IMG/VR virus record: IMGVR_UViG_3300036768_001066
Strand: one strand, 5' to 3'
Length of the DNA: 64,000 bases
Origin: a virus
Taxonomy: Duplodnaviria; Heunggongvirae; Uroviricota; Caudoviricetes
Positions within the stretch are counted from its first letter, which is position 1, and each line of letters starts with the position of its first letter. This document shows, one piece after another, positions 3,769-46,080 of the stretch. A program made the translations under genes and the position numbers. Below the pieces are notes generated by a model, which did not search any database, was not told the DNA's origin, and saw only the letters and a list, made by a program, of their open reading frames with translations.

Positions 3769-4254
3769 AGTACATAAGAGAGATAAACGAACACGGCACG
3801 GCGGCCGAGAAACTCGAACGCGCAAAGGCTGCAGACCTGATAACATTGCCGTAAGGCATAAAGGGTACGAACTGCGCCAACTGCAAGTTCGTGGAGCTCG
3901 AACGCGAGTACTGCACGCACAAGGACGTGGACCAGAAAGTATCACCGAGGATGTGCTGTGCGCTTTGTGGGACGTAGTGCGGTTTATGTCGTCGAGCAGC
4001 GCGATATTTGACTTCTCGCCTTCCGTGTCCACGCCGTAGCCTTCCGGTTTGTCGCTGCCGGCGATGACGATCGGGTTCTTGTACTTGTACGTCTTGACGA
4101 ACAGGTAGGTCATCTTGTCCTCCTCCTTGCCGGATCCTTCCCGGCCGGACACGAGGCCGTTCGACATCGGATTCGACGTGTCGATCTTCTCGCCTGAGTT
4201 CAAGAGATAGAACTTGTTGCGTTTTCCCTCGTTGAGGAACTGCTCGAATAGCAT
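3718..4254 (-). CDS. hypothetical protein, leader family (MLFEQFLNE); 3' end uncertain
   Basis: Strong coding bias from 4254 down to about 3980. Below that the frame runs antisense to the plus-strand zinc-ribbon ORF with non-coding third-position composition. Possible frameshift or uncertain stop. Confidence 0.4.
   Translation of the reverse strand: MLFEQFLNEGKRNKFYLLNSGEKIDTSNPMSNGLVSGREGSGKEEDKMTYLFVKTYKYKNPIVIAGSDKPEGYGVDTEGEKSNIALLDDINRTTSHKAHSTSSVILSGPRPCACSTRVRAPRTCSWRSSYPLCLTAMLSGLQPLRVRVSRPPCRVRLSLLCTSFLLRPSFAYCCAERG
3765..3977 (+). CDS. leader-family small ORF interrupted by an in-frame TAA at 3852-3854, then a zinc-ribbon-like continuation (CANC...CCALCG)
   Basis: MKYIREINEHGTAAEKLERAKAADLITLP, TAA, then GIKGTNCANCKFVELEREYCTHKDVDQKVSPRMCCALCGT in the same frame with G/C-rich third positions. 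Confidence 0.3.
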
Positions 4255-4261
4255 TATTTTT

Positions 4262-4618
4262 TCATCTGTCCTTGTATTTATTTAGAAACTTCTTCGCCTT
4301 GTTTATGACGCCTTTCTTGAAGTACCTATCCTCGCTTACGCTGCCGAATCCTATCGCACCCTCGAGCCCGTCCAGTAGTTCCTCCAGGTTCTTTAGAATC
4401 TCTGCTTTCTTCTCGTCCACCTGGTGCTTCATCTTCACGTAGCTGGTTATCTCGTCAAGGTCCTTCTCCACGTTCTCCTTCCAGTACGCATCGCTGAGCT
4501 CGCCCTCTTCGGATATGATGTCATTTATCCCGTCTACGATCCCCATGTATATTGTCCATAGGTCGTACAACGGAACGCTTTCGGACTCAAACAATTCGAA
4601 TTTCGTCACTATGCTCAT
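4262..4618 (-). CDS. hypothetical protein, leader family (MSIVTKFELFESE)
   Basis: 118-aa ORF with codon bias and an acidic helical sequence. Confidence 0.5.
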   Translation of the reverse strand: MSIVTKFELFESESVPLYDLWTIYMGIVDGINDIISEEGELSDAYWKENVEKDLDEITSYVKMKHQVDEKKAEILKNLEELLDGLEGAIGFGSVSEDRYFKKGVINKAKKFLNKYKDR

Positions 4619-4772
4619 TTATCCTCCTGTTTATTTTCCCACTCCCTCTTGGTTCCCGCGACAAGTGGGGCGACGACGGTAAAGTAATCGCAATCGCGCA
4701 TGGCGCCGAGGAGATCAAAAAATTCCCTAAAGGGAAGTACACCTTCATGGTGATGAAATAACACGATACAAG

Positions 4773-4916
4773 ATGAAAAATACGGCCGACGACATGAACT
4801 CGTTCCTGACAGACCAGTTGGGTGAAGGCACAAAGGACTCCTTCGACGGAGACGATTCGGTCGAGGCGTGGGTGCTTGATACGCTCGACGAGCTGCACAA
4901 GTTCGCGGCCAAGTAA
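4773..4916 (+). CDS. small acidic hypothetical protein (47 aa)
   Basis: MKNTADDMNSFLTDQLGEGTKDSFDGDDSVEAWVLDTLDELHKFAAK with strong G/C third-position bias. Followed by a terminator. Confidence 0.35.
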   Translation: MKNTADDMNSFLTDQLGEGTKDSFDGDDSVEAWVLDTLDELHKFAAK

Positions 4917-4943
4917 GTACAAAGACGAATTCGTAAGATAAAA

Positions 4944-4979
4944 GAAGCCCCGATTTGAAAAATCGGGGCTTTTTATTTT
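4944..4979. terminator. rho-independent terminator, likely bidirectional (stem aagccccgattt / aaatcggggctt plus T-run)
   Basis: Perfect 11-12 bp GC-rich hairpin followed by TTTTATTTT, sitting between convergent gene blocks. Confidence 0.7.
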
Positions 4980-4982
4980 CGG

Positions 4983-5231
4983 TTAGTTCAAACGCGGGTC
5001 GGCCTGTATGAATGCGCGCTTAGGCCTGCCCTTTATCTGCGCCTCGAGATTCAGGGACTCCGCCACGTCCATATAGCACTCCTTGACGGGCCTGTGGCAG
5101 CGGTCCTGTGCGGCGCACATCCTCTCGAATAATTCAATCTGTTCGGGCGATGTCATCCACTCCGTGAAGCCCACGCCGAGTCTGTCAATGTATTTTTTCA
5201 TGATATTCTTGATATTGCTCTCTCTATACAT
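4983..5231 (-). CDS. small hypothetical protein
   Basis: 82-aa ORF with moderate codon bias. Confidence 0.35.
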   Translation of the reverse strand: MYRESNIKNIMKKYIDRLGVGFTEWMTSPEQIELFERMCAAQDRCHRPVKECYMDVAESLNLEAQIKGRPKRAFIQADPRLN

Positions 5232-5572
5232 AATACTCGTGCCTCGTCAACTGTTTCGGCCCAGACGAACACGACGCCGTCCCACGAGAATCTTTTAGCA
5301 TTGGCAACCTTGCAGACGAGCGACGAGTCCACGCCGAGGTCCCTCGCAGCAGCCCTTATGGTCCTCCAGCGACCGAGCGTCTCCATGCCGGCAGGCACAA
5401 TGCCGTACAGGAACATGACCTGCTCGTCGCCTATGTCCTCCGGCGCCCTGTCTTCGACATACGACCACCTGAAATTGCCGCACGTCTTCAGCTCGCCCTT
5501 GCATGCACGGACGATCCCACTCCTGGACAGAGACAAATCCCTCGCGGCTGAGGCCGGAGAGTCCCACTCCAT
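5198..5572 (-). CDS. stand-alone DNA-binding protein with two IENR1/NUMOD-like repeats, the type found at homing-endonuclease C-termini; no nuclease domain
   Basis: Two copies of the pattern W/F-x-S-x-x-x-A-A-R-D-L-G-x-x-x-S-x-I/V-x-x-C-K-G-x-x-K-T-x-G-x-F-R-W (MEWDSPASAARDLSLSRSGIVRACKGELKTCGNFRWSYVE and AAARDLGVDSSLVCKVANAKRFSWDGVVFVW). Start taken at the internal Met MEWDS. The upstream part of the ORF overlaps the RuvC gene. Confidence 0.5.
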   Translation of the reverse strand: MEWDSPASAARDLSLSRSGIVRACKGELKTCGNFRWSYVEDRAPEDIGDEQVMFLYGIVPAGMETLGRWRTIRAAARDLGVDSSLVCKVANAKRFSWDGVVFVWAETVDEARVLCIERAISRIS

Positions 5573-5610
5573 CAAGAGCCGGCCATCAATGGTGTATTGC
5601 GCGCACCTCC

Positions 5611-6267
5611 TCACAGCTTGCCCTCTTTCCTGAGAACGCAGAGCGCCTTGGCGTCCACACAATCGTTTATCGGCGAAGGTATGGCCGCCATATTCATCAT
5701 CTCGTCGTAATACGTCGACAGGTTCTTCCTGAACCCGGACTCCCTCACGTAAGGTAGATCGAGCGCGAACATCGCCTCGAGCATCTCGTGCTTTGTAAAC
5801 TTGCCGCCAGCGACCCCTGCCGGGTTCCTCGCCACGCCCTTCTTATCGGCACCGTACGTCAGCTTGGCGAACTCGTTCTTGAGCGACATCGGCGCGACTA
5901 TCCTCAGCTCTGCCCCGGCGTCGAGTATCCTCTTCCGGAGGAACGTACCGAACATAACGAGGTCGACGATCGCGCCAGGTGCGCGGAACGCGTATCCCTC
6001 GATGAGCACCTGGTCACCAGGCTTGAGCTCGAGAGTGTCTACTATGTGGTTCGCGTTGCGCTGATAGTCCACCAGCTTCTGCACCTCGGAGTCGGAGTAC
6101 TGCCCGCGACCGTCGTAATCGACCAGGACCATCCTGGCGAAAGGCTCAGCCACCTTGGACCACTTAGTGGTCTTCCCCCTGGTGAAACAGTAAAACTCTG
6201 TGGCGTCGTCGGACATGACGCAGACGGCCGTGGACGAGAGCGATGGGTCAATCCCTAATATTCTCAT
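5611..6267 (-). CDS. RuvC-family Holliday junction resolvase
   Basis: N-terminus MRILGIDPSLSSTAVCV matches the RuvC ILGIDPG motif. 218 aa with acidic catalytic residues. Confidence 0.65.
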   Translation of the reverse strand: MRILGIDPSLSSTAVCVMSDDATEFYCFTRGKTTKWSKVAEPFARMVLVDYDGRGQYSDSEVQKLVDYQRNANHIVDTLELKPGDQVLIEGYAFRAPGAIVDLVMFGTFLRKRILDAGAELRIVAPMSLKNEFAKLTYGADKKGVARNPAGVAGGKFTKHEMLEAMFALDLPYVRESGFRKNLSTYYDEMMNMAAIPSPINDCVDAKALCVLRKEGKL

Positions 6268-6685
6268 GCGGAAATCTTTAGGGTATATATCCGACCGGTG
6301 TGAAATATTTGTAGCAAAAGCGCGTACAAGGCGCTATGGACCTCCCGGTATATAAATCAGACAGACAACATCGCCCTTCGGGCCGCATTGGACGGTTGGA
6401 GCGCGACGGATCCTGTGAAGTTCTCAGTTTTAGCGAGAGACTCGGTTCTGTGGTTAGATCAACAGTCGAAGGTATATCTAATCCCGGGGCATCTTGGGTT
6501 AATTTTTTTACGCCTGTTTGGTGCAAATGTTCCCGAAGACTGGAAAATTTAGCGCACGGAAAAACTCGGACCCCCCTGGCCGAAACATGTGAGGGGGGGG
6601 AGAGTAAAAGGGACGATTGAACGTCGGAGTACATTCAGCGCCCAATCAAAGTTCATTTAAAGTCAAATTAAAAAGCATCAAAGTC

Positions 6686-37767: not shown

Positions 37768-38369
37768 ATGGAAAACTATCGTAAGTACATTTTCTGGGGG
37801 TAATCGGGTTCGTCCTGTTCTTCACAGGTTGCAGTAGCTATGTAAGCTACAACAACATGGTATCAATGGAAGAAACCGTAACGGCTAAGTGGTCACAGGT
37901 TGAGAACGTATACCAGCGGAGGTCGGACCTCATTCCGAACTTGGTTAACACTGTCAAGACAGAAGCCAACTTTGAAAAATCAACGCTCGAAGCGGTGATT
38001 CAAGCGCGTGCAAGCGCCACGCAAGTTAAGATTGATCCTACAAACCTGACACCGGAATCCATGAAGGCATTCGAGGCGGCACAAGGTCAACTTGGCACAA
38101 CTCTATCTCGCTTGTTGGTGACGATGGAGCAGTATCCGAACCTCAAATCCAATGAGGCGTTCAACCAGCTGATGTCGCAGCTCGAGGGCACGGAGAACCG
38201 CATAACCGTAGAGCGCCGCGAGTTCAACATCGCTGTGCAGGACTACAACAAGTACATCAGAAGGTTCCCAAAAAATGTGTGGGCCGGCATGTTCGGATTT
38301 CAGACCAAGGCGTACTTCCAGGCAGACAAGGGAGCAGAAAAAACACCAACCGTAAACTTTGACAAATAA
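37768..38369 (+). CDS. LemA-family lipoprotein. The reading frame is broken at a G5 homopolymer (37796-37800): the N-terminal signal/lipobox segment and the LemA body are in different frames.
   Basis: MENYRKYIFWG, then in the next frame VIGFVLFFTGC (lipobox FTGC) SSYV...WSQVENVYQRRSDLIPNLV (LemA signature). Adding one G joins them perfectly. Confidence 0.5.
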
Positions 38370-38373
38370 AAAT

Positions 38374-38604
38374 ATGGGATTTCTTGACAAATTATGGAAA
38401 GACCCCAACGCGGGTAAGACCACAGAGGAGAAAAAGGAGGAGACGCCTAAGAGCGGCAGGTCGTCCAAGAAGAAAAATAAAATGGCTTCATTGGAATGGA
38501 TTGCATTTGGTGTCGGCATGTTTTGCTGTGCCGTCATCATCTTGCAAATTATTATTATTTTGACAAGCTGGACAAGTAGGTCCGGCGCAACAGAGATTAA
38601 ATGA
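38374..38604 (+). CDS. small membrane protein
   Basis: 77 aa with the TM segment WIAFGVGMFCCAVIILQIIIIL. Confidence 0.35.
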   Translation: MGFLDKLWKDPNAGKTTEEKKEETPKSGRSSKKKNKMASLEWIAFGVGMFCCAVIILQIIIILTSWTSRSGATEIK

Positions 38605-39089
38605 TCAACGAAGGAACTACCGGGGAAGAGTCCGATAAGGAAGTTGGAGAAGGTTCGCTCTTGGCGCGATGGGGGCATGCCATTATACGCAAGTTCTACT
38701 ACTGGCGCATGCGTAAGTATGTGAGGATGTCCGGCATGTGGAACCGCCGGATGAACTCGGACCAGGCGAAGTGCTTCGGCATCATCCGCAACCTCGCGGC
38801 CAAGTCGGATTCCGAACTGATGATAGCGCCAATCTCGCAGAAGTTTTACATCCGCTATGGCGACATATTCGTGATAGTGGAGCGTGGCACGGTTAGTATA
38901 ATTAACGGGAGGTACCACTATGACATATCGGTCACAGACGATCTCAACGGCAAGATAACGTCTTTCCTGCACAAGGTGATAGAGCGCCGCAGGGCAGCGC
39001 TCGAGGCCGAGGTCAGATCGAAGATAGACCGCAGCCTCGACAACATATACTACGAGACGCGCAACATGAAAGGACCAAAAAAAGATTAA
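38601..39089 (+). CDS. hypothetical protein
   Basis: 162-aa ORF. Confidence 0.45.
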   Translation: MINEGTTGEESDKEVGEGSLLARWGHAIIRKFYYWRMRKYVRMSGMWNRRMNSDQAKCFGIIRNLAAKSDSELMIAPISQKFYIRYGDIFVIVERGTVSIINGRYHYDISVTDDLNGKITSFLHKVIERRRAALEAEVRSKIDRSLDNIYYETRNMKGPKKD

Positions 39090-39090
39090 C

Positions 39091-39582
39091 ATGTCACTAT
39101 ATTATTTCGCATACGGAAGCAACATGAACCCCGACCGCATGACTGCGAGAGGCGTGGCGTTCGAGTCGTTCGAGTACGGGCACTTGCACCACTACAGATT
39201 ACGGAGCAACAAGATGTCGCAGAAGTACAGGACGCTCGCGTTCGTCAACATCGAGCCGTGCTTCGAGTCGAGTGTGTTCGGCGTGCTGTACACGTTGCCG
39301 TCGACCGCCCAGCTGGAGGAACTGGACAAGAAGGAGGGCTACCCTAACCACTACGAGAAGTGCTTCGTACCGGTGCATACCAAAGAGGGTATGAAGCTCG
39401 CGCTCGTTTACGTGGCTACCCGCAACTGGGCGAGCGAGAACGACCTGCCGATGCCGTCGGAATATAAGGCGCTCATGAATTCCGGATTGGACAAGTGCGA
39501 GGATCTGGTCATCGAGGACAAACAACTATACGAGGCGTTCTTACACTACAAGGAGAAGACACAAGAAATGACAATGATATGA
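39091..39582 (+). CDS. gamma-glutamyl cyclotransferase-like (AIG2/GGCT fold) protein
   Basis: N-terminal YYFAYGSNMNP (YGSNL signature of the GGCT/AIG2 family). Confidence 0.65.
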   Translation: MSLYYFAYGSNMNPDRMTARGVAFESFEYGHLHHYRLRSNKMSQKYRTLAFVNIEPCFESSVFGVLYTLPSTAQLEELDKKEGYPNHYEKCFVPVHTKEGMKLALVYVATRNWASENDLPMPSEYKALMNSGLDKCEDLVIEDKQLYEAFLHYKEKTQEMTMI

Positions 39583-39722
39583 ACAAGATATTTTACGGCT
39601 TCGGTCGAGACTACCTAAAACTGCTCGACTACGGAGAATACAACGAAGAGAACTATCACGGACAGAACGAATCTGACGCAGACATCATGTATGTGGGCAT
39701 CAGCAAAATCACCCGATAGTCT
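39582..39722 (+). CDS. small hypothetical protein (46 aa)
   Basis: Hand-translated MNKIFYGFGRDYLKLLDYGEYNEENYHGQNESDADIMYVGISKITR. Confidence 0.25.
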
Positions 39723-39825
39723 GGACTTCTTGCATCGGCCAATAAGTCAATGGACAGCATCGACAAGCATGGAGAGGGAAAGGAGATTGGCGAGTGGCTT
39801 CTGATTCGAGTACGAGGAACACGGC

Positions 39826-40638
39826 ATGCCCGACCAACAATACAGAATTCGCCGGCAAGTTCAACGCGTCATAGGTGTTTATACGTTTTTACTCAACCTG
39901 CTATACGTCAACAGTAAGTACTACCATGTTCAGATCCCGGCGAGCATGCACTCGCTAATAGGTATAGTCATCGGCTTGCTGCTCGTTTTCAGGACGAACA
40001 CCGCGTACGACCGCTGGTGGGAGGGACGCAGGCTCTTCAGCGCGCTGTCGACCTCAATATCTTACTTCTCAATAAAATTGAACTCGTGCTGCACCGACGT
40101 CCTCGTGAAGACGCAGGCCCGTAACATCATAAAGCAGATACTGCGCAACCTGTCCGACTACCTGCGAGAGACGAACGCCGATAACGTCATGGGACATCAT
40201 AATAAGCAGACCAAGTTCGTTTGCGATATGTTGTTACTCATACGCGACGCCAAGTTGTCTGACAGGGACCTCAACATTCTCGAGGACAAACTAAATGAGA
40301 TAGTTGACATATCCAACTCGTTCGAGCGTATCAAGAGCACGCCGATACCGAAGGCGTACGCCCTGCACATAAAGGCATCGATATTCATATACCTGCTGAG
40401 CCTGCCATTCGGGTTGTTTCACGACCTCGGACTCTGGGCCGCAGCGATGGTCATGGTCATATTCTACATAGTCGCCGGCATCGAGATAATAAGCAACGAG
40501 ATAGAGGACCCATTCGCGGACGATCCGAACGACCTGCCGATAGACACGTACTTCAAGCAGATAAAGGACTCTATGAACATAATCAAGGAGAGCGTGAACT
40601 CGGAGTACGGGAAGTACGGAAAGGAGACCCTGAAATGA
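39826..40638 (+). CDS. bestrophin/UPF0187-family membrane channel homolog
   Basis: RTNTAYDRWWEGRRL matches the bestrophin-family RxxxAYxRWWEAR signature. Several TM helices. Confidence 0.6.
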   Translation: MPDQQYRIRRQVQRVIGVYTFLLNLLYVNSKYYHVQIPASMHSLIGIVIGLLLVFRTNTAYDRWWEGRRLFSALSTSISYFSIKLNSCCTDVLVKTQARNIIKQILRNLSDYLRETNADNVMGHHNKQTKFVCDMLLLIRDAKLSDRDLNILEDKLNEIVDISNSFERIKSTPIPKAYALHIKASIFIYLLSLPFGLFHDLGLWAAAMVMVIFYIVAGIEIISNEIEDPFADDPNDLPIDTYFKQIKDSMNIIKESVNSEYGKYGKETLK

Positions 40639-40898: not shown

Positions 40899-41056
40899 CA
40901 AACAAATACGAAAAGGCAGAGCTCGCCGCAAAGTGGTTATCCGAGCTCGCCAAAAGGATAATATAACAATAGTGACGGTTATGTGCATCGCCCCATGAGG
41001 GACTCGTCCATTCCGGACGTCATAATAGTTGATCATCTCAGCCTGATGAATTAAAC

Positions 41057-41084
41057 AAAGCCCGGTTTGTCCGGGCTTTTTTAT
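41057..41084 (+). terminator. rho-independent terminator (aagcccgg / ccgggctt plus TTTTTTATT)
   Basis: Hairpin and T-run. Confidence 0.6.
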
Positions 41085-41090
41085 TGATCC

Positions 41091-41269
41091 ACCACAATTT
41101 TCCGCAAATTTCCTGATATATACAGAGTAGATACCATCTGTTCGAAGTCCAATTTATATAGACCAATCAAAGGTTTTCAAGCGTTTAGAGTCCCAGAATA
41201 CTAAAGGCTCTGGGAAGTTTTATCCTTTTTGAAAGGATTTTCCAAAAATTTCCAGATATATAAAGACAA
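41091..41269 (+). promoter_or_regulatory. two copies of a 30-bp element, ATTTTCCnnAAATTTCCnGATATATAmAGA, at 41091-41121 and 41239-41269, upstream of the head-gene cluster. TATATAAAGA resembles the T4 late promoter TATAAATA.
   Basis: Direct repeat seen in the sequence. The second copy ends 21 nt before the prohead protease/scaffold start. A small hairpin, cccagaatactaaaggctctggg, lies between the copies. Confidence 0.4.
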
Positions 41270-41289
41270 AGGAATCAACCTTACAACGG

Positions 41290-43278
41290 ATGAATACAAA
41301 CCTGCAACTACAAGAGAACTACGTGTTCCTCCTCGAGCGTGCTGAGAGCAACCTCGTGGTAGAGGCTACGGGTAGCAATCCGAAAGACTACATTCTCGAA
41401 GGTATCGCCGCTATCATGGGCGAGGAGAATAACAACCACAGGATTTACGAGGCAAAGGAGTATCTTCCGCACCTCGAGTACCTAAACAAGAAGATTCAGC
41501 AGAAGCGCCTGGTCGGAGAGCTCGACCACCCAGAGAAGTTTGACGTTTCCCTCAAGAACATATCCCACATAGTTGAGAAGCTCGAGTACAACGAGAAGGA
41601 CAGGACCCTCAGGATTCGCGTGCGCTTGCTCGACACTCCACACGGACAGATTGCCAAGACATTAGTAGACGCCGGATACCCGCTGTCTATTTCTTCGCGT
41701 GCTGCCGGTTCTGTTATGGAGAACAAGAAGGTTAAGATCAAAAAGATATTCACATACGACCTCGTCGCAGACCCTGGTTTCGAAAAGGCACAGCTTGATA
41801 GGATTTACGAGAGCGCGAACTTTGATGCGGGCACTAAAAAGTCCGTTATTTCAGAGCTTACGGACATCTCGGAGAGCTTTGCGCCAGAATTTTCCGCACA
41901 CACGAAGATATATAGTGTAGATCCGAACAATGCGGCGTTTAAGAAGGCGATGCTGGATGAGGACAAAAAAACCAACAACGACATGAATCAATTCGTAACA
42001 TCTGAAGAGCTCAACGATTGGTCCGCTGCATTCCGTACCGGAATCATGAAGGAGATTGAAAATGTTAAGTCGAAGGTTACCGAGTCTACTGATGCTGAAA
42101 TTATCAAGACCCTTCTTGAAAAAATCGAGAAGCACGAGAGGTACATGAAGTATCTCGCAGGCAACCTTGATAAGAACATTCAGTACACTGAGTACGTGGC
42201 TGAGAACCTCGACAAGAACATCGAGTATTCTAAGTACCTCGCAGAGAACCTCGACCGTAACATTTCTTACAGCGAGTACCTCGCAGAGAACCTCGACCGT
42301 AACATTTCTTACAGCGAGTACCTCGCAGAGAACCTCGACCGCGGTATTTCGTTTATGGACTACCTCGCAGAGAACCTCGAGAAGAACATCAACTACAGCG
42401 AGTACCTCGCAGAGAACCTCGACAAGAACATTTCTTATTCCGAGTACCTCGCAGAGAACCTCGACAAGAACATTTCTTATTCCGAGTACCTCGCAGAGAA
42501 CCTCGACAAGAACATTTCTTATTCCGAGTACCTCGCAGAGAACCTCGACAGGGGAATCGGATATTCTGAGTATTTGGCAGAAAAAATCGAGAATAACATC
42601 GCTTATTCCGAATATATAGCTGAAAACGTCGTTGCTGCGGCCCCAGCGGTTACCGCAATGCCAGCAGCTACGAACAATAGTTCTGCACCGATAGCCAAGG
42701 TTAACGAGAGCGTAGCTGAGGCGAACAAATACACTGGTTTGTCCGCACAGATAAACCAACTGCTGGAGGCCGCTACTAAACAGAAAGCCGCCACCAAAAT
42801 GAACGAGAGCCAGTACCACTTCTTCCGCTTCCTAAGCGAAGCTAAGAGGAACGAGTTCGAAGCCCTCGAGGAGGCCAAGAAAGAAAAGGTCGCAAACGCC
42901 CTGAAACCAGGTGCGTACTTTTCAGAAGCTGACGTAACCAAAATTTGGGAAGCAGCTTTGATTGAGAAGCAGGATGACACTCCGAAGTTCCTGCAAATGA
43001 TTCCGGAGTCGATTAAGCCGCTCTACGAGGCGCTTACCGAATCCGAAAAGCAAGGCATACTTGCACAGAGCAAATTGATGAACCTCGACACCGAGTACAA
43101 AATCAAGAACTTCTGGACAAGCAGGCCATTTGTAAGGGGCAAGGTTGTTGGACTTGTAAAACTCAACGAAAATGAAACGGCAGTTCCAGCGAACACCGAT
43201 AAAACCAAGACACTCGGCTACGGCACAGAGTACATGGACAAAATCGCGTCACAACTCGGACAACGTTTTAAAAAGTAA
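41290..43278 (+). CDS. prohead protease (T4 gp21-like, N-terminal) fused to a scaffold/core domain containing about 11.5 tandem 14-aa repeats (YSEYLAENLDKNIS)
   Basis: N-terminus GIAAIMGEENNNHRIYEAKEY...GELDHPE resembles the gp21/U35-type prohead protease signature (GxxG..N.NgRiY). The helical acidic repeat array is encoded by a 42-bp periodicity at 42151-42630. The gene lies immediately upstream of the major capsid gene. Confidence 0.6.
   Translation: MNTNLQLQENYVFLLERAESNLVVEATGSNPKDYILEGIAAIMGEENNNHRIYEAKEYLPHLEYLNKKIQQKRLVGELDHPEKFDVSLKNISHIVEKLEYNEKDRTLRIRVRLLDTPHGQIAKTLVDAGYPLSISSRAAGSVMENKKVKIKKIFTYDLVADPGFEKAQLDRIYESANFDAGTKKSVISELTDISESFAPEFSAHTKIYSVDPNNAAFKKAMLDEDKKTNNDMNQFVTSEELNDWSAAFRTGIMKEIENVKSKVTESTDAEIIKTLLEKIEKHERYMKYLAGNLDKNIQYTEYVAENLDKNIEYSKYLAENLDRNISYSEYLAENLDRNISYSEYLAENLDRGISFMDYLAENLEKNINYSEYLAENLDKNISYSEYLAENLDKNISYSEYLAENLDKNISYSEYLAENLDRGIGYSEYLAEKIENNIAYSEYIAENVVAAAPAVTAMPAATNNSSAPIAKVNESVAEANKYTGLSAQINQLLEAATKQKAATKMNESQYHFFRFLSEAKRNEFEALEEAKKEKVANALKPGAYFSEADVTKIWEAALIEKQDDTPKFLQMIPESIKPLYEALTESEKQGILAQSKLMNLDTEYKIKNFWTSRPFVRGKVVGLVKLNENETAVPANTDKTKTLGYGTEYMDKIASQLGQRFKK
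42151..42630 (+). repeat. coding tandem repeat, 42-bp unit repeated about 11.4 times, inside the protease-scaffold gene
   Basis: Near-identical units tacctcgcagagaacctcgacaagaacatttcttattccgag. Confidence 0.8.
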
Positions 43279-43296
43279 AAAAACCAAACAAGCATC

Positions 43297-44811
43297 ATGA
43301 AAATGATCAACGAACAAGAGGTTTTTGAAACTTGGTCTCCGGTTATCAACGAGAAGACTAATATCAAAGACTCGAACAAAGTAGAATGGCTTTCTAAGTA
43401 CTGCCACTACCACTCGCTCAATGAGTCTGCTATCCACGCTGGATACGGCACTCTCGACGCGCTTAACGGTATGGGCCAGCCTTTGGCTCCGACCAGGTCC
43501 GCTAACGGTTCCGGCGACAAGTTCCCTTCACTTCTTCCGCTCGCTATCCAGGTAGCAGCTAAGACTGTAGGTTTCGACATCGTTCCGGTTATCCCGATGC
43601 CAGGCCCAACAGGTGTTCTCACCTACCTCGATTACGTTTACGCAGGTGGACGTATCGACAACGCTGACCATAAGCCACTCCTGATCAAGTTCAACGCGAC
43701 AGGTACGTGGACTAACGGTACATCGTACACCGCAACTTCAGGTGCTGGTACCCTTGCCCTTACCTTCGTTGGTAAGTCGAGGATCGACGGTTACCCAATC
43801 TTCAAGGTTGGTGCATCTACTCCGTCTACCATCTCTGTAGCTCAGGTTATTGGTGTGGTTGGCGCGACAGTAACAACTGACGCAGCTCCGGTTGCAGCTA
43901 CTAACGCTGCTGCCCTCGTAGCAATGCTCGAAGATCACATCCAAGGTTTCGCTGGTGCAGGTGACACTGACACAGCTAACTGGACCGGTCCTTACGCAGA
44001 TGCTAACGACTCTGGTCCAATGACCCGTGAAGTTGGTGAGTCTACCTACTACAGGACGACTAACCTCAAGACTTTCACCAAGTTCGTTGAGACTGAGACC
44101 TACCAGCTTGCTGCGCAGGTAACTACTGAGCAGATACAAGACCTTAACAAGCAGTTCGGTATCGACGTTGTGTCGATGGTTGAGAACTCGCTCGTTAACG
44201 ATGTATCACAGCACATCAACAAACACATCCTCGTGACCGCATTCGGTCTTGGTACGCAGAACGCTACTGAGTTCGCTGCAACTGAAGGACAGGTGCTCGA
44301 CCTCAACCTTACGGCTCTGCCTACGGTTGGTACGTACGAGAACCTCCAGACGTTCCAGAGGAGAATCTTCAGCCGCATACTTGCTGCCGCTAACGTAGTA
44401 GCAAACCGTGGTCGTCGTGGACCTGCGAACTTCGTTGTATGTAACTCTCAGATTGCTACGGCGATCCAGGACATCAGCCAGTTCCAGCCAGCTCCGTTCG
44501 CGAACACCGCAAGCCAGAACAACGGTGCTCTCTACCCAGTAGGATCACTCGCTGGTATGACTGTGTACGTTGACCAGAACATGAAGTGGACTGACACTCG
44601 CGTACTTGTCGGCCGTAAGGGCGCAGACGACGAGCCAGGTCTGAAGTTCATGCCGTACATGATGGCTGAGTCTATCCAGACAATCTCTGAAGGCACTATG
44701 TCTCCGAAGATCGCTGTGAAGTCTCGCTACGCCCTCGTGTCAGCTGGATTCCACCCACAGACAATGTACTTCACTTTCACGATCCAGGTGCCTACCTCAG
44801 GTATCATCTAA
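43297..44811 (+). CDS. major capsid protein, T4 gp23-like (HK97 fold)
   Basis: FDIVPVIPMPGPTGVLTYLDYVYAGG resembles the conserved gp23 core block (V..V.PM..P.G.i.YL). 504 aa. Preceded by the protease-scaffold gene and followed by a strong terminator. Confidence 0.75.
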   Translation: MKMINEQEVFETWSPVINEKTNIKDSNKVEWLSKYCHYHSLNESAIHAGYGTLDALNGMGQPLAPTRSANGSGDKFPSLLPLAIQVAAKTVGFDIVPVIPMPGPTGVLTYLDYVYAGGRIDNADHKPLLIKFNATGTWTNGTSYTATSGAGTLALTFVGKSRIDGYPIFKVGASTPSTISVAQVIGVVGATVTTDAAPVAATNAAALVAMLEDHIQGFAGAGDTDTANWTGPYADANDSGPMTREVGESTYYRTTNLKTFTKFVETETYQLAAQVTTEQIQDLNKQFGIDVVSMVENSLVNDVSQHINKHILVTAFGLGTQNATEFAATEGQVLDLNLTALPTVGTYENLQTFQRRIFSRILAAANVVANRGRRGPANFVVCNSQIATAIQDISQFQPAPFANTASQNNGALYPVGSLAGMTVYVDQNMKWTDTRVLVGRKGADDEPGLKFMPYMMAESIQTISEGTMSPKIAVKSRYALVSAGFHPQTMYFTFTIQVPTSGII

Positions 44812-44860
44812 TCCATGATCCTGTAAAGGACGGGTGCTCTGAACGAGTACACGGAATAAC

Positions 44861-44897
44861 GAAACCCCGAAGGATACTTCGGGGTTTCTTATTTTAT
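44861..44897. terminator. strong rho-independent terminator (gaaaccccgaag / cttcggggtttc plus T-rich tail)
   Basis: 12-bp perfect hairpin after the capsid gene, where the flanking genes are convergent. Confidence 0.75.
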
Positions 44898-44906
44898 ATC
44901 GGTCGT

Positions 44907-45047
44907 GATTTATTCGTCGAGTATTCCACTGATCAGCATGCCGCCGACCATGCAAGCTGGCAACTGCCAAGGCGACAAACCGGGAGTTGCGACGCCCATC
45001 AACACGAGGATCCCGCCAACTATGCGCCAGAATATGTTTCTCTTCTC
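44907..45047 (-). CDS. small membrane protein (46 aa)
   Basis: MREKRNIFWRIVGGILVLMGVATPGLSPWQLPACMVGGMLISGILDE. Confidence 0.3.
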
Positions 45048-45049
45048 CC

Positions 45050-45640
45050 TCATAATGTAGTTATCAAATGTGTCTCGTCTATCCCAGGCGTTCCGCTGCA
45101 GTAGAGTCGGTACTTGACATCACCGAGCCTGTGCGCTATTATTTCGTTGGGCATCACCGAGAACACGCACGTGCTCGATATGCGTCCATCCATTGTTATC
45201 CGGTCTCCCCTCAGTATGCCGTCGAGGTTGAACTCCAGAGACCGCGCCACGCCGACACTCTTCTCGTTGCCGGCGTCGGTGCGTATCTCTATCCTGTACA
45301 CTCCCATGTGCCTCAGCACGGTCGCGAGCAGAGCTGCCGCGGTTTTTGTGTGACCCTTGCCTTGCTCCGACGTCCTCATCCAGTACCCTATCTCTGCCAC
45401 GTGAGCGTTGAACGGCGCGCGTATTATTCCGACGCTGCCGATGAACCTCGGCGTGTTGTCGACGCGCTTGAATACGTCGTACCTGAATGACGCGCGGCTC
45501 TCCCTGAGCTTCTCCGCCTCTCTCAGGTCGTCTTCCACTCTCTCCATGGTCGGGTACTCCTGCGCCCATCCCATCCACGCGGACAGGTCCCTGTGCGACT
45601 CCTTGCGGGCGTCGAGGATCTCCTCGGCCGGGCTGAGCAT
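45050..45640 (-). CDS. GNAT family N-acetyltransferase (RimJ/RimL-like)
   Basis: FIGSVGIIR...AEIGYWMRTSEQGKGHTKTAAALLATVLRHMGVYRIEIRTDAGNEKSVGVARSLEF is GNAT motif A/B-like. Start chosen at the internal Met MLSPAEE, because the upstream part overlaps the neighbouring gene. Confidence 0.6.
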   Translation of the reverse strand: MLSPAEEILDARKESHRDLSAWMGWAQEYPTMERVEDDLREAEKLRESRASFRYDVFKRVDNTPRFIGSVGIIRAPFNAHVAEIGYWMRTSEQGKGHTKTAAALLATVLRHMGVYRIEIRTDAGNEKSVGVARSLEFNLDGILRGDRITMDGRISSTCVFSVMPNEIIAHRLGDVKYRLYCSGTPGIDETHLITTL

Positions 45641-45695
45641 GCTCGTTCGGAATATTATTATCCCGTTGCCCTCGATCCAGTGCAGGTGCTGTATT

Positions 45696-46080
45696 TTACT
45701 TAATAAGTTCAAGGTATAATTTGGTTGAGGCGTTCTCGAAGTTGTTCGGCACATCCATGTCGAGCAGTTCCTTGAGGTCGGACTTGAGCTTCTCGTATTT
45801 AACGGCGCCGTTGTCCTGGTCCCTCGCAATCCTGAACACTTGCACAGAGGCTATCGTGCGCCTGCGGTTCGGCCGTATCATCTTGTGCAGGTCCTGGTTG
45901 CCCTTGTAAAGGCTGGTGAAGTTCTTCTCGATTATCTTCTCGAGCGTGACCTTCCCGTTCTCGGCCGCCGTGGCTATCCCGGTAACTACCCAGGTCATGC
46001 CGTTCTGGCTCTTCGAGTACCCGTACTCGGCGCCTATTACTATTTCCTCTCCTACTGCTCCTACTGCGTCTATTGTTTTC
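45696..46080 (-). CDS. hypothetical protein
   Basis: 128 aa, from MKTIDAVGAVG. Confidence 0.4.

What the first reader, a model, noticed from the sequence alone, without database searches (positions are those of the whole stretch)
41290..43278. Prohead protease fused to a scaffold with a perfect 42-bp, 11-copy tandem repeat
The N-terminus has the gp21/U35-type protease signature (GEENNNHRIY). The remaining 450 aa are helical and acidic. They include about 11.5 copies of YSEYLAENLDKNIS encoded by a 42-bp DNA repeat at 42151-42630. The gene directly precedes the gp23-like capsid gene. A modular repeat scaffold could act as a length ruler for head size. The near-identical DNA repeats are also prone to expansion and contraction.
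Basis: seen in the sequence. Interest (0 to 1): 0.55.

Follow-up and report, generated by a model that had tools for sequence, protein, structure and literature searches.

The report
Megaphage head protease fused to repeat scaffold
This gene from a very large uncultured phage joins a T4-type capsid-maturation protease to a helical scaffolding protein built from about twelve 14-residue repeats. Each repeat carries the protease's likely cutting site, and a conserved internal start codon probably also yields the scaffold alone. It is an undescribed variant of a known design, not a proven size ruler.

Summary
The ORF (41290-43278, 662 aa) is real, and the gp23-type capsid gene follows 18 nt downstream. 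The N-terminus is a T4 gp21-type (S77) prohead protease with the catalytic His and Ser conserved.

The repeat is real but not perfect. It has 11 full 42-bp units plus a partial twelfth (42142-42627), about 82% matching, and only two units are identical.

It is not an assembly artefact. Hundreds of homologues from uncultured huge phages, including the 462-735 kb GenBank megaphages, carry the same 14-aa array in the same place.

I found three things:
- Every unit contains [LIV]-A-E followed by N. This fits the T4 gp21 cleavage rule L/I-x-E. Similar conserved sites lie at the end of the protease domain, 35 aa from the C-terminus and in the capsid propeptide.
- Met232 is conserved in all homologues. 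It is preceded by an A-rich, unstructured, Bacteroidota-type initiation region. Some relatives encode the scaffold as a separate gene starting there, so a nested 431-aa scaffold is likely.
- Copy number changes quickly but stays bounded (8-17, mode 13-14). It shows no relation to genome or contig length.

The simple ruler idea is therefore not supported. I class this as a new variant of a known kind, of moderate interest.

The parts
41290..43278 (+). Full ORF, 662 aa: prohead protease fused to scaffold
   Evidence: ORF listing. The identical protein is on record from a 373,759-bp JGI contig.
41290..41814 (+). S77 (T4 gp21-type) serine protease domain, aa 1-175. Catalytic His80 is at 41527-41529 and Ser135 at 41692-41694. 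The candidate third residue, Asp157, is at 41758-41760.
   Evidence: Pfam S77 match above the cut-off. PHROG 207. 5JBL by sequence, 6e-4 for the single protein and 8e-10 for the profile, and by fold. H80, S135 and D157 are invariant in 12-26 diverse homologues. H80 and S135 align with the two Ala positions ('GELNAP', 'VASRGLG') in the 5JBL chain.
41803..41814 (+). Candidate release site R-I-Y-E174|S175 at the end of the protease domain. A second [IV]-x-E|S site, D-I-S-E195|S, lies at 41866-41877.
   Evidence: An [LIV]xE motif is present here in 26/26 aligned homologues, and E174 is invariant. That it is actually cleaved is inferred from the T4 gp21 rule L/I-x-E (PMC9026906).
41959..41985 (+). 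A-rich initiation region (gacaaaaaaaccaacaacgac) and internal ATG for Met232 (41983-41985)
   Evidence: Met is present in 64/64 non-redundant loci and 120/120 database homologues. A at -15/-14 is 98% and at -12 is 94%; no T at -3. Synonymous codons shift towards A. The region is among the least structured in the gene. It resembles the leader of the capsid gene.
41983..43278 (+). Putative nested scaffold gene, 431 aa, 49 kDa, pI 4.8
   Evidence: Relatives encode stand-alone scaffold genes that start at or near the homologous Met: L092 and L090. No Pfam or PHROG family matches this part.
42142..42627 (+). Tandem array: 11 full 42-bp (14-aa) units plus a partial twelfth. Consensus YSEYLAENLDKNIS. 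Each unit carries [LIV]-A-E|N.
   Evidence: TRF. Unit table and identity matrix. Predicted as part of a long helix, aa 269-446, at low confidence. The motif is conserved unit by unit across homologues.
42628..42738 (+). Variable linker rich in Ala, Thr and Pro, predicted disordered (aa 447-483)
   Evidence: AlphaFold2 pLDDT <50. Length and composition vary among homologues, and the nearest relative has a 26-aa insertion here.
42739..43170 (+). Conserved helical C-terminal domain (aa 484-627), ending in the conserved site K-L-N-E627|N (43159-43170)
   Evidence: AlphaFold2 predicts helices with pLDDT 60-82. Conserved columns, with E627 invariant in 26/26.
43171..43275 (+). C-terminal tail (aa 628-662, pI 9.2) with a terminal helix at 646-660 ending in RFKK. 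Candidate capsid-binding tail, removed by the cut at E627.
   Evidence: AlphaFold2 helix 646-660. Y648 and F660 are conserved. Charge. The binding role is inferred by analogy with the herpesvirus M-site (PMC4498786).
43297..44811 (+). gp23-type major capsid protein. Conserved propeptide aa 1-43 (43297-43425) ends in H-S-L-N-E43|S.
   Evidence: Pfam Gp23. The propeptide and its [LIM]-N-E motif are conserved in about 60 loci, followed by a variable Gly/Pro-rich stretch.

Best explanation
The gene encodes the head-assembly core of a huge phage that probably infects Bacteroidota. It combines the T4 gp21 (protease) and gp22 (scaffold) functions in one reading frame.

Layout:
- aa 1-175: an S77 serine protease.
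- aa 232-662: a scaffolding protein. It has a long amphipathic, acidic helix made of about twelve 14-residue units, a disordered linker, a conserved helical domain, and a basic C-terminal tail that probably holds the capsid protein.

Proposed mechanism:
1. The full-length product carries the protease into the procapsid by co-assembling with the scaffold.
2. A second product, the 431-aa scaffold alone, is probably made in excess by internal initiation at Met232. This start has an SD-less, A-rich leader of the Bacteroidota type.
3. After shell assembly the protease cuts after Glu in [LIV]-x-E. It cuts itself free at E174, removes the capsid-binding tail at E627 and removes the capsid propeptide at E43.
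4. It also cuts once per repeat, so the core is reduced to 14-mers of about 1.7 kDa that can leave the shell.

The array evolves by gain and loss of whole units, within bounds.

Shown: the domain identities, the repeat anatomy, the conservation of the motifs and of Met232, and the existence of stand-alone scaffold genes in relatives.
Inferred: the cleavage specificity, use of the internal start, the capsid-binding tail and the scaffold role itself.
For: Protease:
- Pfam S77 above the cut-off, PHROG 207, and 5JBL by sequence and by fold.
- H80, S135 and D157 are invariant.

Scaffold identity:
- The gene occupies the gp21-gp22-gp23 position, 18 nt before the capsid gene.
- The C-terminal part is helical and acidic.
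- Relatives encode the same module as a separate gene. L092 has a 403-aa gene with 230 nt of non-coding DNA upstream and a capsid gene 51% identical directly after it. L090 has portal, a 217-aa S77 protease, a 409-aa scaffold, then the capsid gene.
- Cultured Tenacibaculum phages annotate homologues as 'prohead core scaffolding protein and protease'.

Cleavage logic:
- T4 gp21 cuts after L/I-x-E and shreds gp22 (PMC9026906).
- [LI]xE occurs 29 times against 12+/-3 in shuffles. [LIV]xE[SN] occurs 19 times against 2.3+/-1.5.
- Sites are conserved in >=80% of 26 homologues at E174, in every repeat, and at E493, E580 and E627.
- The capsid propeptide ends in a conserved LNE|S.

Internal start:
- Met232 is present in 64/64 loci and 120/120 proteins, although it lies in a variable linker. 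The only other Met conserved at >=80% is M570.
- The A profile at -15 to -11 and at -3 matches the capsid gene start and the Bacteroidia initiation signature (PMC6847099).
- Lys AAA is used 85% of the time upstream of the Met against 64% elsewhere (p=1e-6).
- The region is at the median 90th percentile for lack of RNA structure.
- Genes in the window lack SD sequences.
- The closest GenBank relatives were predicted by their authors to infect Bacteroidetes (PMC7162821).

Repeat dynamics.
Against: - There is no experimental evidence for any product, cleavage site or assembly role.
- AlphaFold2 confidence is low in the repeat (pLDDT 38-60). The model is a monomer, so the oligomeric state is unknown.
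- The scaffold part matches no curated family and shows no detectable sequence homology to T4 gp22.
- The K/N/T-rich stretch before Met232 could simply be a flexible linker. The codon-bias p-values ignore shared ancestry.
- The L090 split lies next to an A6 run and could be an indel error.
- L/I-x-E motifs are common in acidic helices, and the specificity of this protease is only assumed from T4. The phiKZ-type relatives use S/A-x-E.
- The third catalytic residue was not aligned to T4.
Confidence: 0.7

Rival explanations
1. Length ruler. The number of 14-aa units sets the reach of the scaffold and so the head size. More units would give a larger capsid and genome.
For: - Copy number is bounded (8-17, mode 13-14) despite fast turnover.
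- The window and its nearest relative both have 12 units after one loss and one gain at different places. This hints at selection on total length.
- Total scaffold length from Met232 to the end rises with genome or contig length (rho 0.89, n=12).
Against: - Copy number itself does not track genome or contig length from 309 to 735 kb (rho -0.06, 12-15 units throughout).
- The scaffold-length trend rests on one clade of four genomes above 630 kb. It comes from the linker and pre-repeat regions, not the array.
- Contig lengths are only lower bounds on genome size.
- Close relatives (>=95% identity) differ by up to 6 units. Under a strict ruler this would imply different head sizes within near-identical phages.
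- If helical, the 162-aa array is about 24 nm long (my estimate at 0.15 nm per residue). That is well short of the radius expected for a capsid of T about 30 or more (genome-to-T table in PMC8814770).
Confidence: 0.12
2. Single polyprotein only. Met232 is not used as a start. All scaffold comes from self-cleavage of the full-length protein at E174, and the conserved Met and A-rich stretch reflect protein-level constraints.
For: - A conserved candidate release site, [IV]-x-E174|S, exists, so free scaffold could be made without a second start.
- K/N/T-rich linkers are common in multidomain proteins.
Against: - Met is 100% conserved at a variable distance (2-13 aa) from the next conserved motif, inside an otherwise variable linker.
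- There is a synonymous-site bias towards A and minimal RNA structure.
- The region resembles real start sites in the same genomes.
- Separate scaffold genes start at the same place in relatives.
- T4 uses about 576 gp22 to 100 gp21 copies (PMC5694885). A 1:1 polyprotein cannot give such a ratio.
Confidence: 0.25
3. Assembly artefact or collapsed repeat. On this view the array and its copy number come from short-read misassembly.
For: - Units 7-9 are 93-100% identical over 126 bp.
- Some of the copy-number differences among near-identical database proteins could be assembly noise.
Against: - Most units differ from one another at several positions (52-93% identity), so reads can be placed.
- The reading frame is intact.
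- The same array lies at the same place in hundreds of independent assemblies. These include manually curated complete genomes and two separate runs for the nearest relative.
Confidence: 0.03
4. Not a scaffold. On this view the repeat region is an internal head or ejection protein, or a store of acidic peptides that stay in the head with the DNA, and shell assembly is guided by something else.
For: - T4 keeps some acidic core fragments in the mature head (PMC9026906).
- The predicted 14-mers are acidic, with pI 4.4.
- No homology to a proven scaffold was found.
Against: - The gene order, the fusion to the protease, the conserved tail with a cleavage site just before it, and the stand-alone gene directly upstream of the capsid gene in L092 all fit a scaffold.
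- No other scaffold candidate lies beside the capsid gene in the window.
Confidence: 0.08

Closest known systems
Phage T4 gp21 prohead protease plus gp22 scaffolding core protein
   Same: - The protease belongs to the same family (S77), by sequence and by fold.
- The gene order is the same: protease, scaffold, gp23-type capsid gene.
- The capsid propeptide resembles the T4 Delta-piece region.
- The scaffold is acidic and helical and is rich in L/I-x-E sites.
   Different: - T4 has two separate genes, whereas here there is one frame, probably with a nested start.
- There is no detectable sequence similarity to gp22.
- The scaffold is a regular 14-aa tandem array with one site per unit.
- The hosts use SD-less initiation.
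Herpesvirus UL26 / UL26.5 (assemblin-scaffold, nested genes)
   Same: - An N-terminal protease of the same structural superfamily (weak Foldseek hit to PrV pUL26N) is fused to a C-terminal scaffold.
- An in-frame shorter scaffold product is made.
- There is a release site after the protease.
- A maturation site lies about 35 aa from the C-terminus (37 aa in PrV) and frees the scaffold from the capsid protein.
   Different: - UL26.5 is made from its own transcript, whereas here internal translation initiation is proposed.
- The cleavage motifs differ (Ala|Ser in herpesviruses, Glu| here).
- Herpesvirus scaffolds have no tandem repeat.
- All the site assignments here are inferred.
Lambda C/Nu3, Mu I/Z and P2 gpO protease-scaffold arrangements (recalled from memory, not tested here)
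   Same: Protease and scaffold share one reading frame, and the scaffold is also made from an internal start or released by self-cleavage.
   Different: - The protease families are different.
- The capsids are small (T=7).
- The scaffolds are not repetitive.
'Prohead core scaffolding protein and protease' of Tenacibaculum phages PTm1/pT24 and of T4-like cyanophages and pelagiphages
   Same: - The fused S77-plus-helical-tail architecture and the annotation are the same.
- PTm1 also has a short internal repeat, seen.
   Different: - Identity is only 27-33%, mainly over the protease domain.
- The 14-aa YSEYLAENLDKNI array is absent.
- That array is found only in uncultured huge phages among the 50,697 GenBank phage records searched.

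Membership tests
Peptidase S77 (T4 gp21 prohead core protease) | Sequence match to the family model above its curated threshold | tested here: met
   PF03420 scores 38.4 bits against a cut-off of 27, E=1.2e-9. PHROG 207 scores 1.5e-40.
Peptidase S77 (T4 gp21 prohead core protease) | Assemblin-like fold shared with the solved T4 gp21 structure | tested here: met
   Foldseek against 5JBL gives E=1e-7 and target TM 0.69-0.72, from an AlphaFold2 model with pLDDT 70-85 in this domain.
Peptidase S77 (T4 gp21 prohead core protease) | Catalytic His and Ser present | tested here: met
   H80 (GELDHP) and S135 (ISSRAAG) are invariant. They align with the positions that read Ala in the 5JBL chain. That these are the mutated catalytic residues rests on my own knowledge.
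Peptidase S77 (T4 gp21 prohead core protease) | Third catalytic residue (Asp) | tested here: inconclusive
   D157 is invariant, 22 residues after the Ser. The spacing is similar to S153/D178 in SPN3US gp245. The alignments to 5JBL stop before this position.
Peptidase S77 (T4 gp21 prohead core protease) | Cleavage after Glu in L/I-x-E | not testable with these tools
   Only indirect evidence exists: conserved [LIV]-x-E sites in the expected substrates.
Phage scaffolding (prohead core) protein, gp22-like in function | Gene lies next to and upstream of the major capsid gene in the head module | tested here: met
   There are 18 nt between the stop codon and the capsid ATG. The order is the same in L001-L005, L088, L090 and L092.
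Phage scaffolding (prohead core) protein, gp22-like in function | Helical, acidic, elongated protein | tested here: met
   AlphaFold2 predicts helices at 238-446 and 484-616. Net charge is -20 and pI 4.8. Confidence is low in the repeat.
Phage scaffolding (prohead core) protein, gp22-like in function | Sequence homology to a characterised scaffold such as T4 gp22 | tested here: not met
   No Pfam or PHROG family matches aa 232-662. tblastn against 50,697 phage records hits only six unannotated megaphage records.
Phage scaffolding (prohead core) protein, gp22-like in function | Present in procapsids, absent from virions, and required for shell assembly | not testable with these tools
   This needs proheads or genetics in a cultured host.
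Nested protease/scaffold gene pair (lambda C/Nu3, herpes UL26/UL26.5 type) | In-frame internal start that yields the scaffold alone | tested here: inconclusive
   The comparative signal is strong: a universal Met, an A-rich unstructured leader, synonymous-site bias, and stand-alone genes in relatives. There is no expression data.

The most novel reading that the evidence does not exclude
The 14-residue array is a length-constrained, self-destructing building block of the assembly core of capsids with T of about 30 or more.
- A nested, SD-less internal start supplies it in excess over the fused protease.
- One protease site per unit turns the whole core into uniform 1.7-kDa acidic peptides.
- Unit number is held near 13 by selection, because the array sets a fixed spacing in the core. 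The variable linker, rather than the array, scales with head size.

If so, this would be the first identified scaffold of the largest known phages, and a natural copy-number series for testing how giant capsids are measured.
Probability: 0.25. Interest if true: 0.65.

Novelty: new variant of a known kind. Interest (0 to 1): 0.45.

Why it matters
How very large capsids are built to the right size is an open question. [quoted passage not shown]

This family covers at least 720 clusters at 50% identity. It includes the 462-735 kb megaphages. It gives a concrete scaffold candidate with natural variation in unit number (8-17) and in linker length, which can be compared with genome size.

It also gives a clear case of a probable internal translation start in phages of SD-less Bacteroidota hosts. 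Gene callers report only the long ORF.

The regular placement of a putative cleavage site in every repeat gives a simple, testable picture of how a large scaffold mass is cleared.

Tried and rejected
- Megablast of the protease and capsid genes against GenBank phages found nothing.
- The exact protein could not be located with the look-up of encoding contigs. The source sample is therefore unknown beyond 'JGI, 373,759-bp contig'.
- The Pfam hit to the LTI65/LTI78 PGEED repeat has no single stretch that passes on its own. I treat it as summed low-complexity noise. The same applies to FERM_F2, PSCyt2 and the other sub-threshold hits.
- A profile of the whole alignment A1 found nothing in the PDB. 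A profile of the protease domain alone did.
- Three apparent stand-alone scaffold proteins were artefacts. L091 and L094 are open to the contig edge, and L093 is broken by an N gap while remaining in frame with a protease.
- Very long proteins (1,300-2,300 aa) hit by the repeat region lack the strict motif. They are probably generic coiled-coil matches.
- The motif occurs nowhere else in the window.
- Hydrophobic periodicity is mixed, with power at both 3.5 and 4.67 residues. I make no claim of a canonical two-stranded coiled coil.
- The scaffold-length versus genome-length correlation is confounded by clade. I do not use it as support.
- The antisense ORF 41851..42819 is a by-product of the repeat.
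Full report
**1. What is in the sequence**

An ATG ORF runs 41290..43278 on the + strand and encodes 662 aa. The next ORF, 43297..44811, starts 18 nt after its stop codon.

Tandem Repeats Finder reports a 42-bp array at 42149-42550 with 9.6 copies, 82% matches, no indels and score 447. Overlapping 84-bp and 126-bp descriptions reach 42611.

Read in frame, there are 11 full units from 42142 to 42603 and a partial twelfth at 42604-42627 (YSEYIAEN). Among the 11 full units, DNA identity between units ranges from 52% to 100%. Only units 8 and 9 are identical, and unit 7 differs from them by 3 nt. Three units read exactly YSEYLAENLDKNIS. The repeat is therefore real and far beyond chance, but it is not 'perfect', and the coordinates are slightly off.

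**2. The two neighbouring genes**

- The N-terminal part matches Pfam Peptidase_S77, the T4 gp21 family (38.4 bits against a cut-off of 27). It matches Peptidase_S80 more weakly.
- The downstream protein matches Gp23 at 8.7e-42.
- PHROGs calls the two proteins head maturation protease (1.5e-40) and major head protein.
- The only solved structure found by sequence is T4 gp21, 5JBL (6e-4 for the single protein, 8e-10 for a profile of the protease domain).
- An AlphaFold2 model (mean pLDDT 61, but 70-85 in the protease domain) matches 5JBL by Foldseek at E=1e-7 with target TM about 0.7. It matches pseudorabies virus assemblin weakly.
- H80 (GELDHP) and S135 (ISSRAAG) are invariant in the family. 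They align with the two positions that read Ala in the 5JBL chain. D157 is also invariant and is a candidate third catalytic residue, but the alignments stop before it.
- 'U35' in the finding is the HK97-type family. The match here is to S77.

**3. Where it comes from**

- The identical protein is on record from a 373,759-bp JGI contig.
- No GenBank phage is similar at the DNA level.
- By tblastn the best relatives are the uncultured huge phages LR756500 (462 kb), LR745206, LR756504 and LR756502 (635-642 kb) and LR756501/3 (735 kb). More distant relatives are the Lak megaphages and Tenacibaculum phages PTm1/pT24. The PTm1 homologue is annotated 'prohead core scaffolding protein and protease'.
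- The authors of the LR genomes placed the genomes above 634 kb in the Mahaphage clade and predicted Bacteroidetes hosts (PMC7162821).
- Genes in the window have no Shine-Dalgarno sequences. They have A-rich leaders instead, which fits such a host.
- The window also carries replication genes: helicase, primase, DNA polymerase and NAD ligase.

**4. The repeat is an old, conserved protein feature**

- All five LR megaphage homologues carry the same 14-aa unit, Y-[ST]-E-Y-[LIV]-A-E-N-[LV]-D-K-[NS]-I-x, at the same place.
- All 120 best database homologues (45-86% identity, 618-746 aa) carry it, with 8-17 units and a mode of 13-14.
- Most of 80 IMG/VR loci carry it, down to 35% identity.
- With the scaffold part alone as query, 720 cluster representatives match at E<=1e-3 and 108 at E<=1e-30.
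- Among 50,697 GenBank phage records, only the six LR records match.
- Lak phages have an acidic low-complexity region instead. PTm1 has a different short repeat.

This excludes an assembly artefact as the origin of the array.

**5. Anatomy of the C-terminal two thirds**

AlphaFold2 predicts the following:

| Region (aa) | Prediction |
|---|---|
| 238-264, 269-353, 359-446 | Helices. The repeat lies inside this long helix, at pLDDT of only 38-60. |
| 447-483 | Disordered stretch |
| 484-616 | Helical domain, pLDDT 60-82 |
| 617-645 | Disordered stretch |
| 646-660 | Terminal helix |

- The repeat carries a net charge of -20, which equals the net charge of aa 232-662 as a whole. The last 35 residues are basic, with pI 9.2.
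- Hydrophobic periodicity has power at both 3.5 and 4.67 residues. I call it an amphipathic helix with a 14-residue super-period and make no claim about the oligomer.
- No Pfam or PHROG family covers this part.

**6. A cleavage site in every unit**

T4 gp21 cuts after Glu in L/I-x-E. It breaks gp22 into small fragments that leave the shell, and it removes N-terminal propeptides from shell proteins (PMC9026906).

- In this protein, [LI]-x-E occurs 29 times against 12+/-3 in composition-preserving shuffles. Outside the repeat the count is 19 against 7.5+/-2.5.
- The narrower pattern [LIV]-x-E-[SN] occurs 19 times against 2.3+/-1.5.
- Sites conserved in at least 80% of 26 diverse homologues are:
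  - E174, at the end of the protease domain (RIYE|S);
  - one site per repeat (LAE|N);
  - E493 and E580;
  - E627 (KLNE|N), 35 residues from the C-terminus.
- The first 43 or so residues of the capsid protein are highly conserved and end in [LIM]-N-E|S. A variable Gly/Pro-rich stretch follows before the gp23 fold begins.
- Cutting at every [LI]-x-E would leave no scaffold fragment longer than 48 aa. It would turn the array into 14-mers of 1.66 kDa and pI 4.4.

The layout parallels herpesvirus UL26. That protein has a release site after the protease and a maturation site 37 aa from the C-terminus, which frees the scaffold from the capsid protein (PMC4498786). The cleavage specificity here is inferred, not shown.

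**7. A probable nested scaffold gene**

- Met232 (ATG at 41983) lies in an otherwise variable linker. It sits 2-13 residues before the invariant V236-T237. It is present in 64 of 64 non-redundant loci and in all 120 database homologues. The only other Met conserved at >=80% is M570, inside the C-terminal domain.
- Upstream, A reaches 98% at -15 and -14, 94% at -12 and 75% at -3, with no T at -3. The capsid gene start in the same loci has a similar profile. This matches the Bacteroidia initiation signature of A at -14 to -11, -6 and -3 with low structure (PMC6847099).
- In the window the leader 'acaaaaaaaccaacaacgacATG' resembles the capsid gene leader 'gtaaaaaaaccaaacaagcatcATG'.
- Synonymous codons in the eight upstream codons are shifted towards A. 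Lys AAA is 85% against 64% elsewhere (p=1e-6), Glu GAA is 89% against 73%, and third-position G is 6% against 12%. These p-values ignore shared ancestry.
- The 50 nt around the Met are among the least structured in the gene. The median is the 90th percentile in 63 loci, and in the window the value is -1.8 against a mean of -8.3 kcal/mol.
- Some relatives encode the module separately:
  - L092 has a 403-aa scaffold gene with 230 nt of non-coding DNA upstream and a capsid gene 51% identical directly after it.
  - L090, on a 204.6-kb contig, has portal, a 217-aa S77 protease, then a 409-aa scaffold starting at the homologous Met. That split lies beside an A6 run and could be an indel error.
- T4 uses roughly 576 gp22 to 100 gp21 copies (PMC5694885). 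This gives a reason for an extra, scaffold-only product.

I put internal initiation at about 0.65-0.7.

**8. Copy number and the ruler idea**

- The nearest relative (89% nt identity, two independent runs) also has 12 units. The alignment shows one unit missing and another added at different places, plus a 78-nt insertion in the linker. Its units are also less alike than those of the window.
- Across 120 homologues, 38% of pairs with >=95% identical protease domains differ in unit number. The mean difference saturates near 1.6 whatever the divergence. Turnover is therefore fast but bounded, which suggests selection on array length. Some of the differences may be assembly noise.
- For 12 genomes or contigs of 309-735 kb, unit number (12-15 by the relaxed count used in the correlation; 6-14 by the strict count, because the LR756500 array is degenerate) does not correlate with length (rho -0.06).
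- Total scaffold length does correlate with length (rho 0.89). That rests on one clade of four genomes above 630 kb and on linker length, and contig lengths are only lower bounds.
- If helical, the array is about 24 nm long (162 aa at 0.15 nm per residue, my estimate). Genomes of 350-500 kb go with T=28-52 shells (PMC8814770).

The simple ruler reading is not supported. A role for a fixed array length is not excluded.

**9. Comparison with known systems and verdict**

By function and position this is T4 gp21 plus gp22 in one frame. By layout it is closest to herpesvirus UL26/UL26.5 and, from memory, to lambda C/Nu3 and Mu I/Z. The fused 'prohead core scaffold and protease' annotation already exists for cultured Tenacibaculum phages and for T4-like cyanophages and pelagiphages. 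UniProt holds at least one homologue with the same architecture, named only as a protease.

I could not find the following in the searchable literature:
- the 14-aa array with one putative site per unit;
- its restriction to uncultured huge phages;
- the conserved SD-less internal start;
- the bounded copy-number dynamics.

I rate it a new variant of a known kind, with interest 0.45.

Noticed in passing
window 30830-33244 (+): An 804-aa protein matches Pfam MVP_shoulder (2.1e-27), the Vault_3 repeat (1.9e-9) and SPFH/Band 7 (3e-5). A major-vault-protein-like protein encoded by a huge phage is unusual.
   Followed up: no
window 37857-40638 (+): Membrane and small-molecule genes lie just upstream of the head genes: LemA (5e-57), a gamma-glutamyl cyclotransferase-like GGACT/AIG2 protein, and a bacterial bestrophin-type channel (9e-50). 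The bestrophin gene sits in the same position in the nearest relative, L088.
   Followed up: partly
window 41000-45000 versus L001-L005, L007, L090: In the window no portal gene lies next to the protease-capsid pair. In L090 and PTm1 an annotated portal gene sits directly upstream of the protease, and in the LR megaphages a 560-610-aa ORF (not annotated, probably the portal) lies in that position.
   Followed up: no
L090 2940-3013: In one relative the protease and scaffold are in different frames, overlapping by 13 nt. The frame change lies next to an A6 run about 45 nt before the scaffold ATG. It could be a real gene split, an indel error or a frameshift site.
   Followed up: partly
L007 (Tenacibaculum phage PTm1) 3920-5689; L006 (Lak-A1) 3941-5695: The homologous fused proteins use other fillers in place of the 14-aa array. 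PTm1 has 3-4 copies of a roughly 16-aa unit (DFTKELSEGIEKWIKT-like). Lak has a long Asp/Glu/Ser-rich low-complexity stretch.
   Followed up: no
L005 (LR756501, 735 kb) 3929-6352: The largest phage genome has the longest homologue, at 807 aa. The extra length is mainly a Gln/Ala/Gly-rich and acidic insertion between the array and the C-terminal domain, not extra units.
   Followed up: partly
window 41851-42819 (-): A 322-aa antisense ORF overlaps the repeat. It is a by-product of the periodic sequence, which has no stop codons in that frame, and is not a gene.
   Followed up: yes
window 45050-45829 (-): A GNAT-family acetyltransferase lies on the opposite strand just after the capsid gene. It is also present in the nearest relative, L088.
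   Followed up: no
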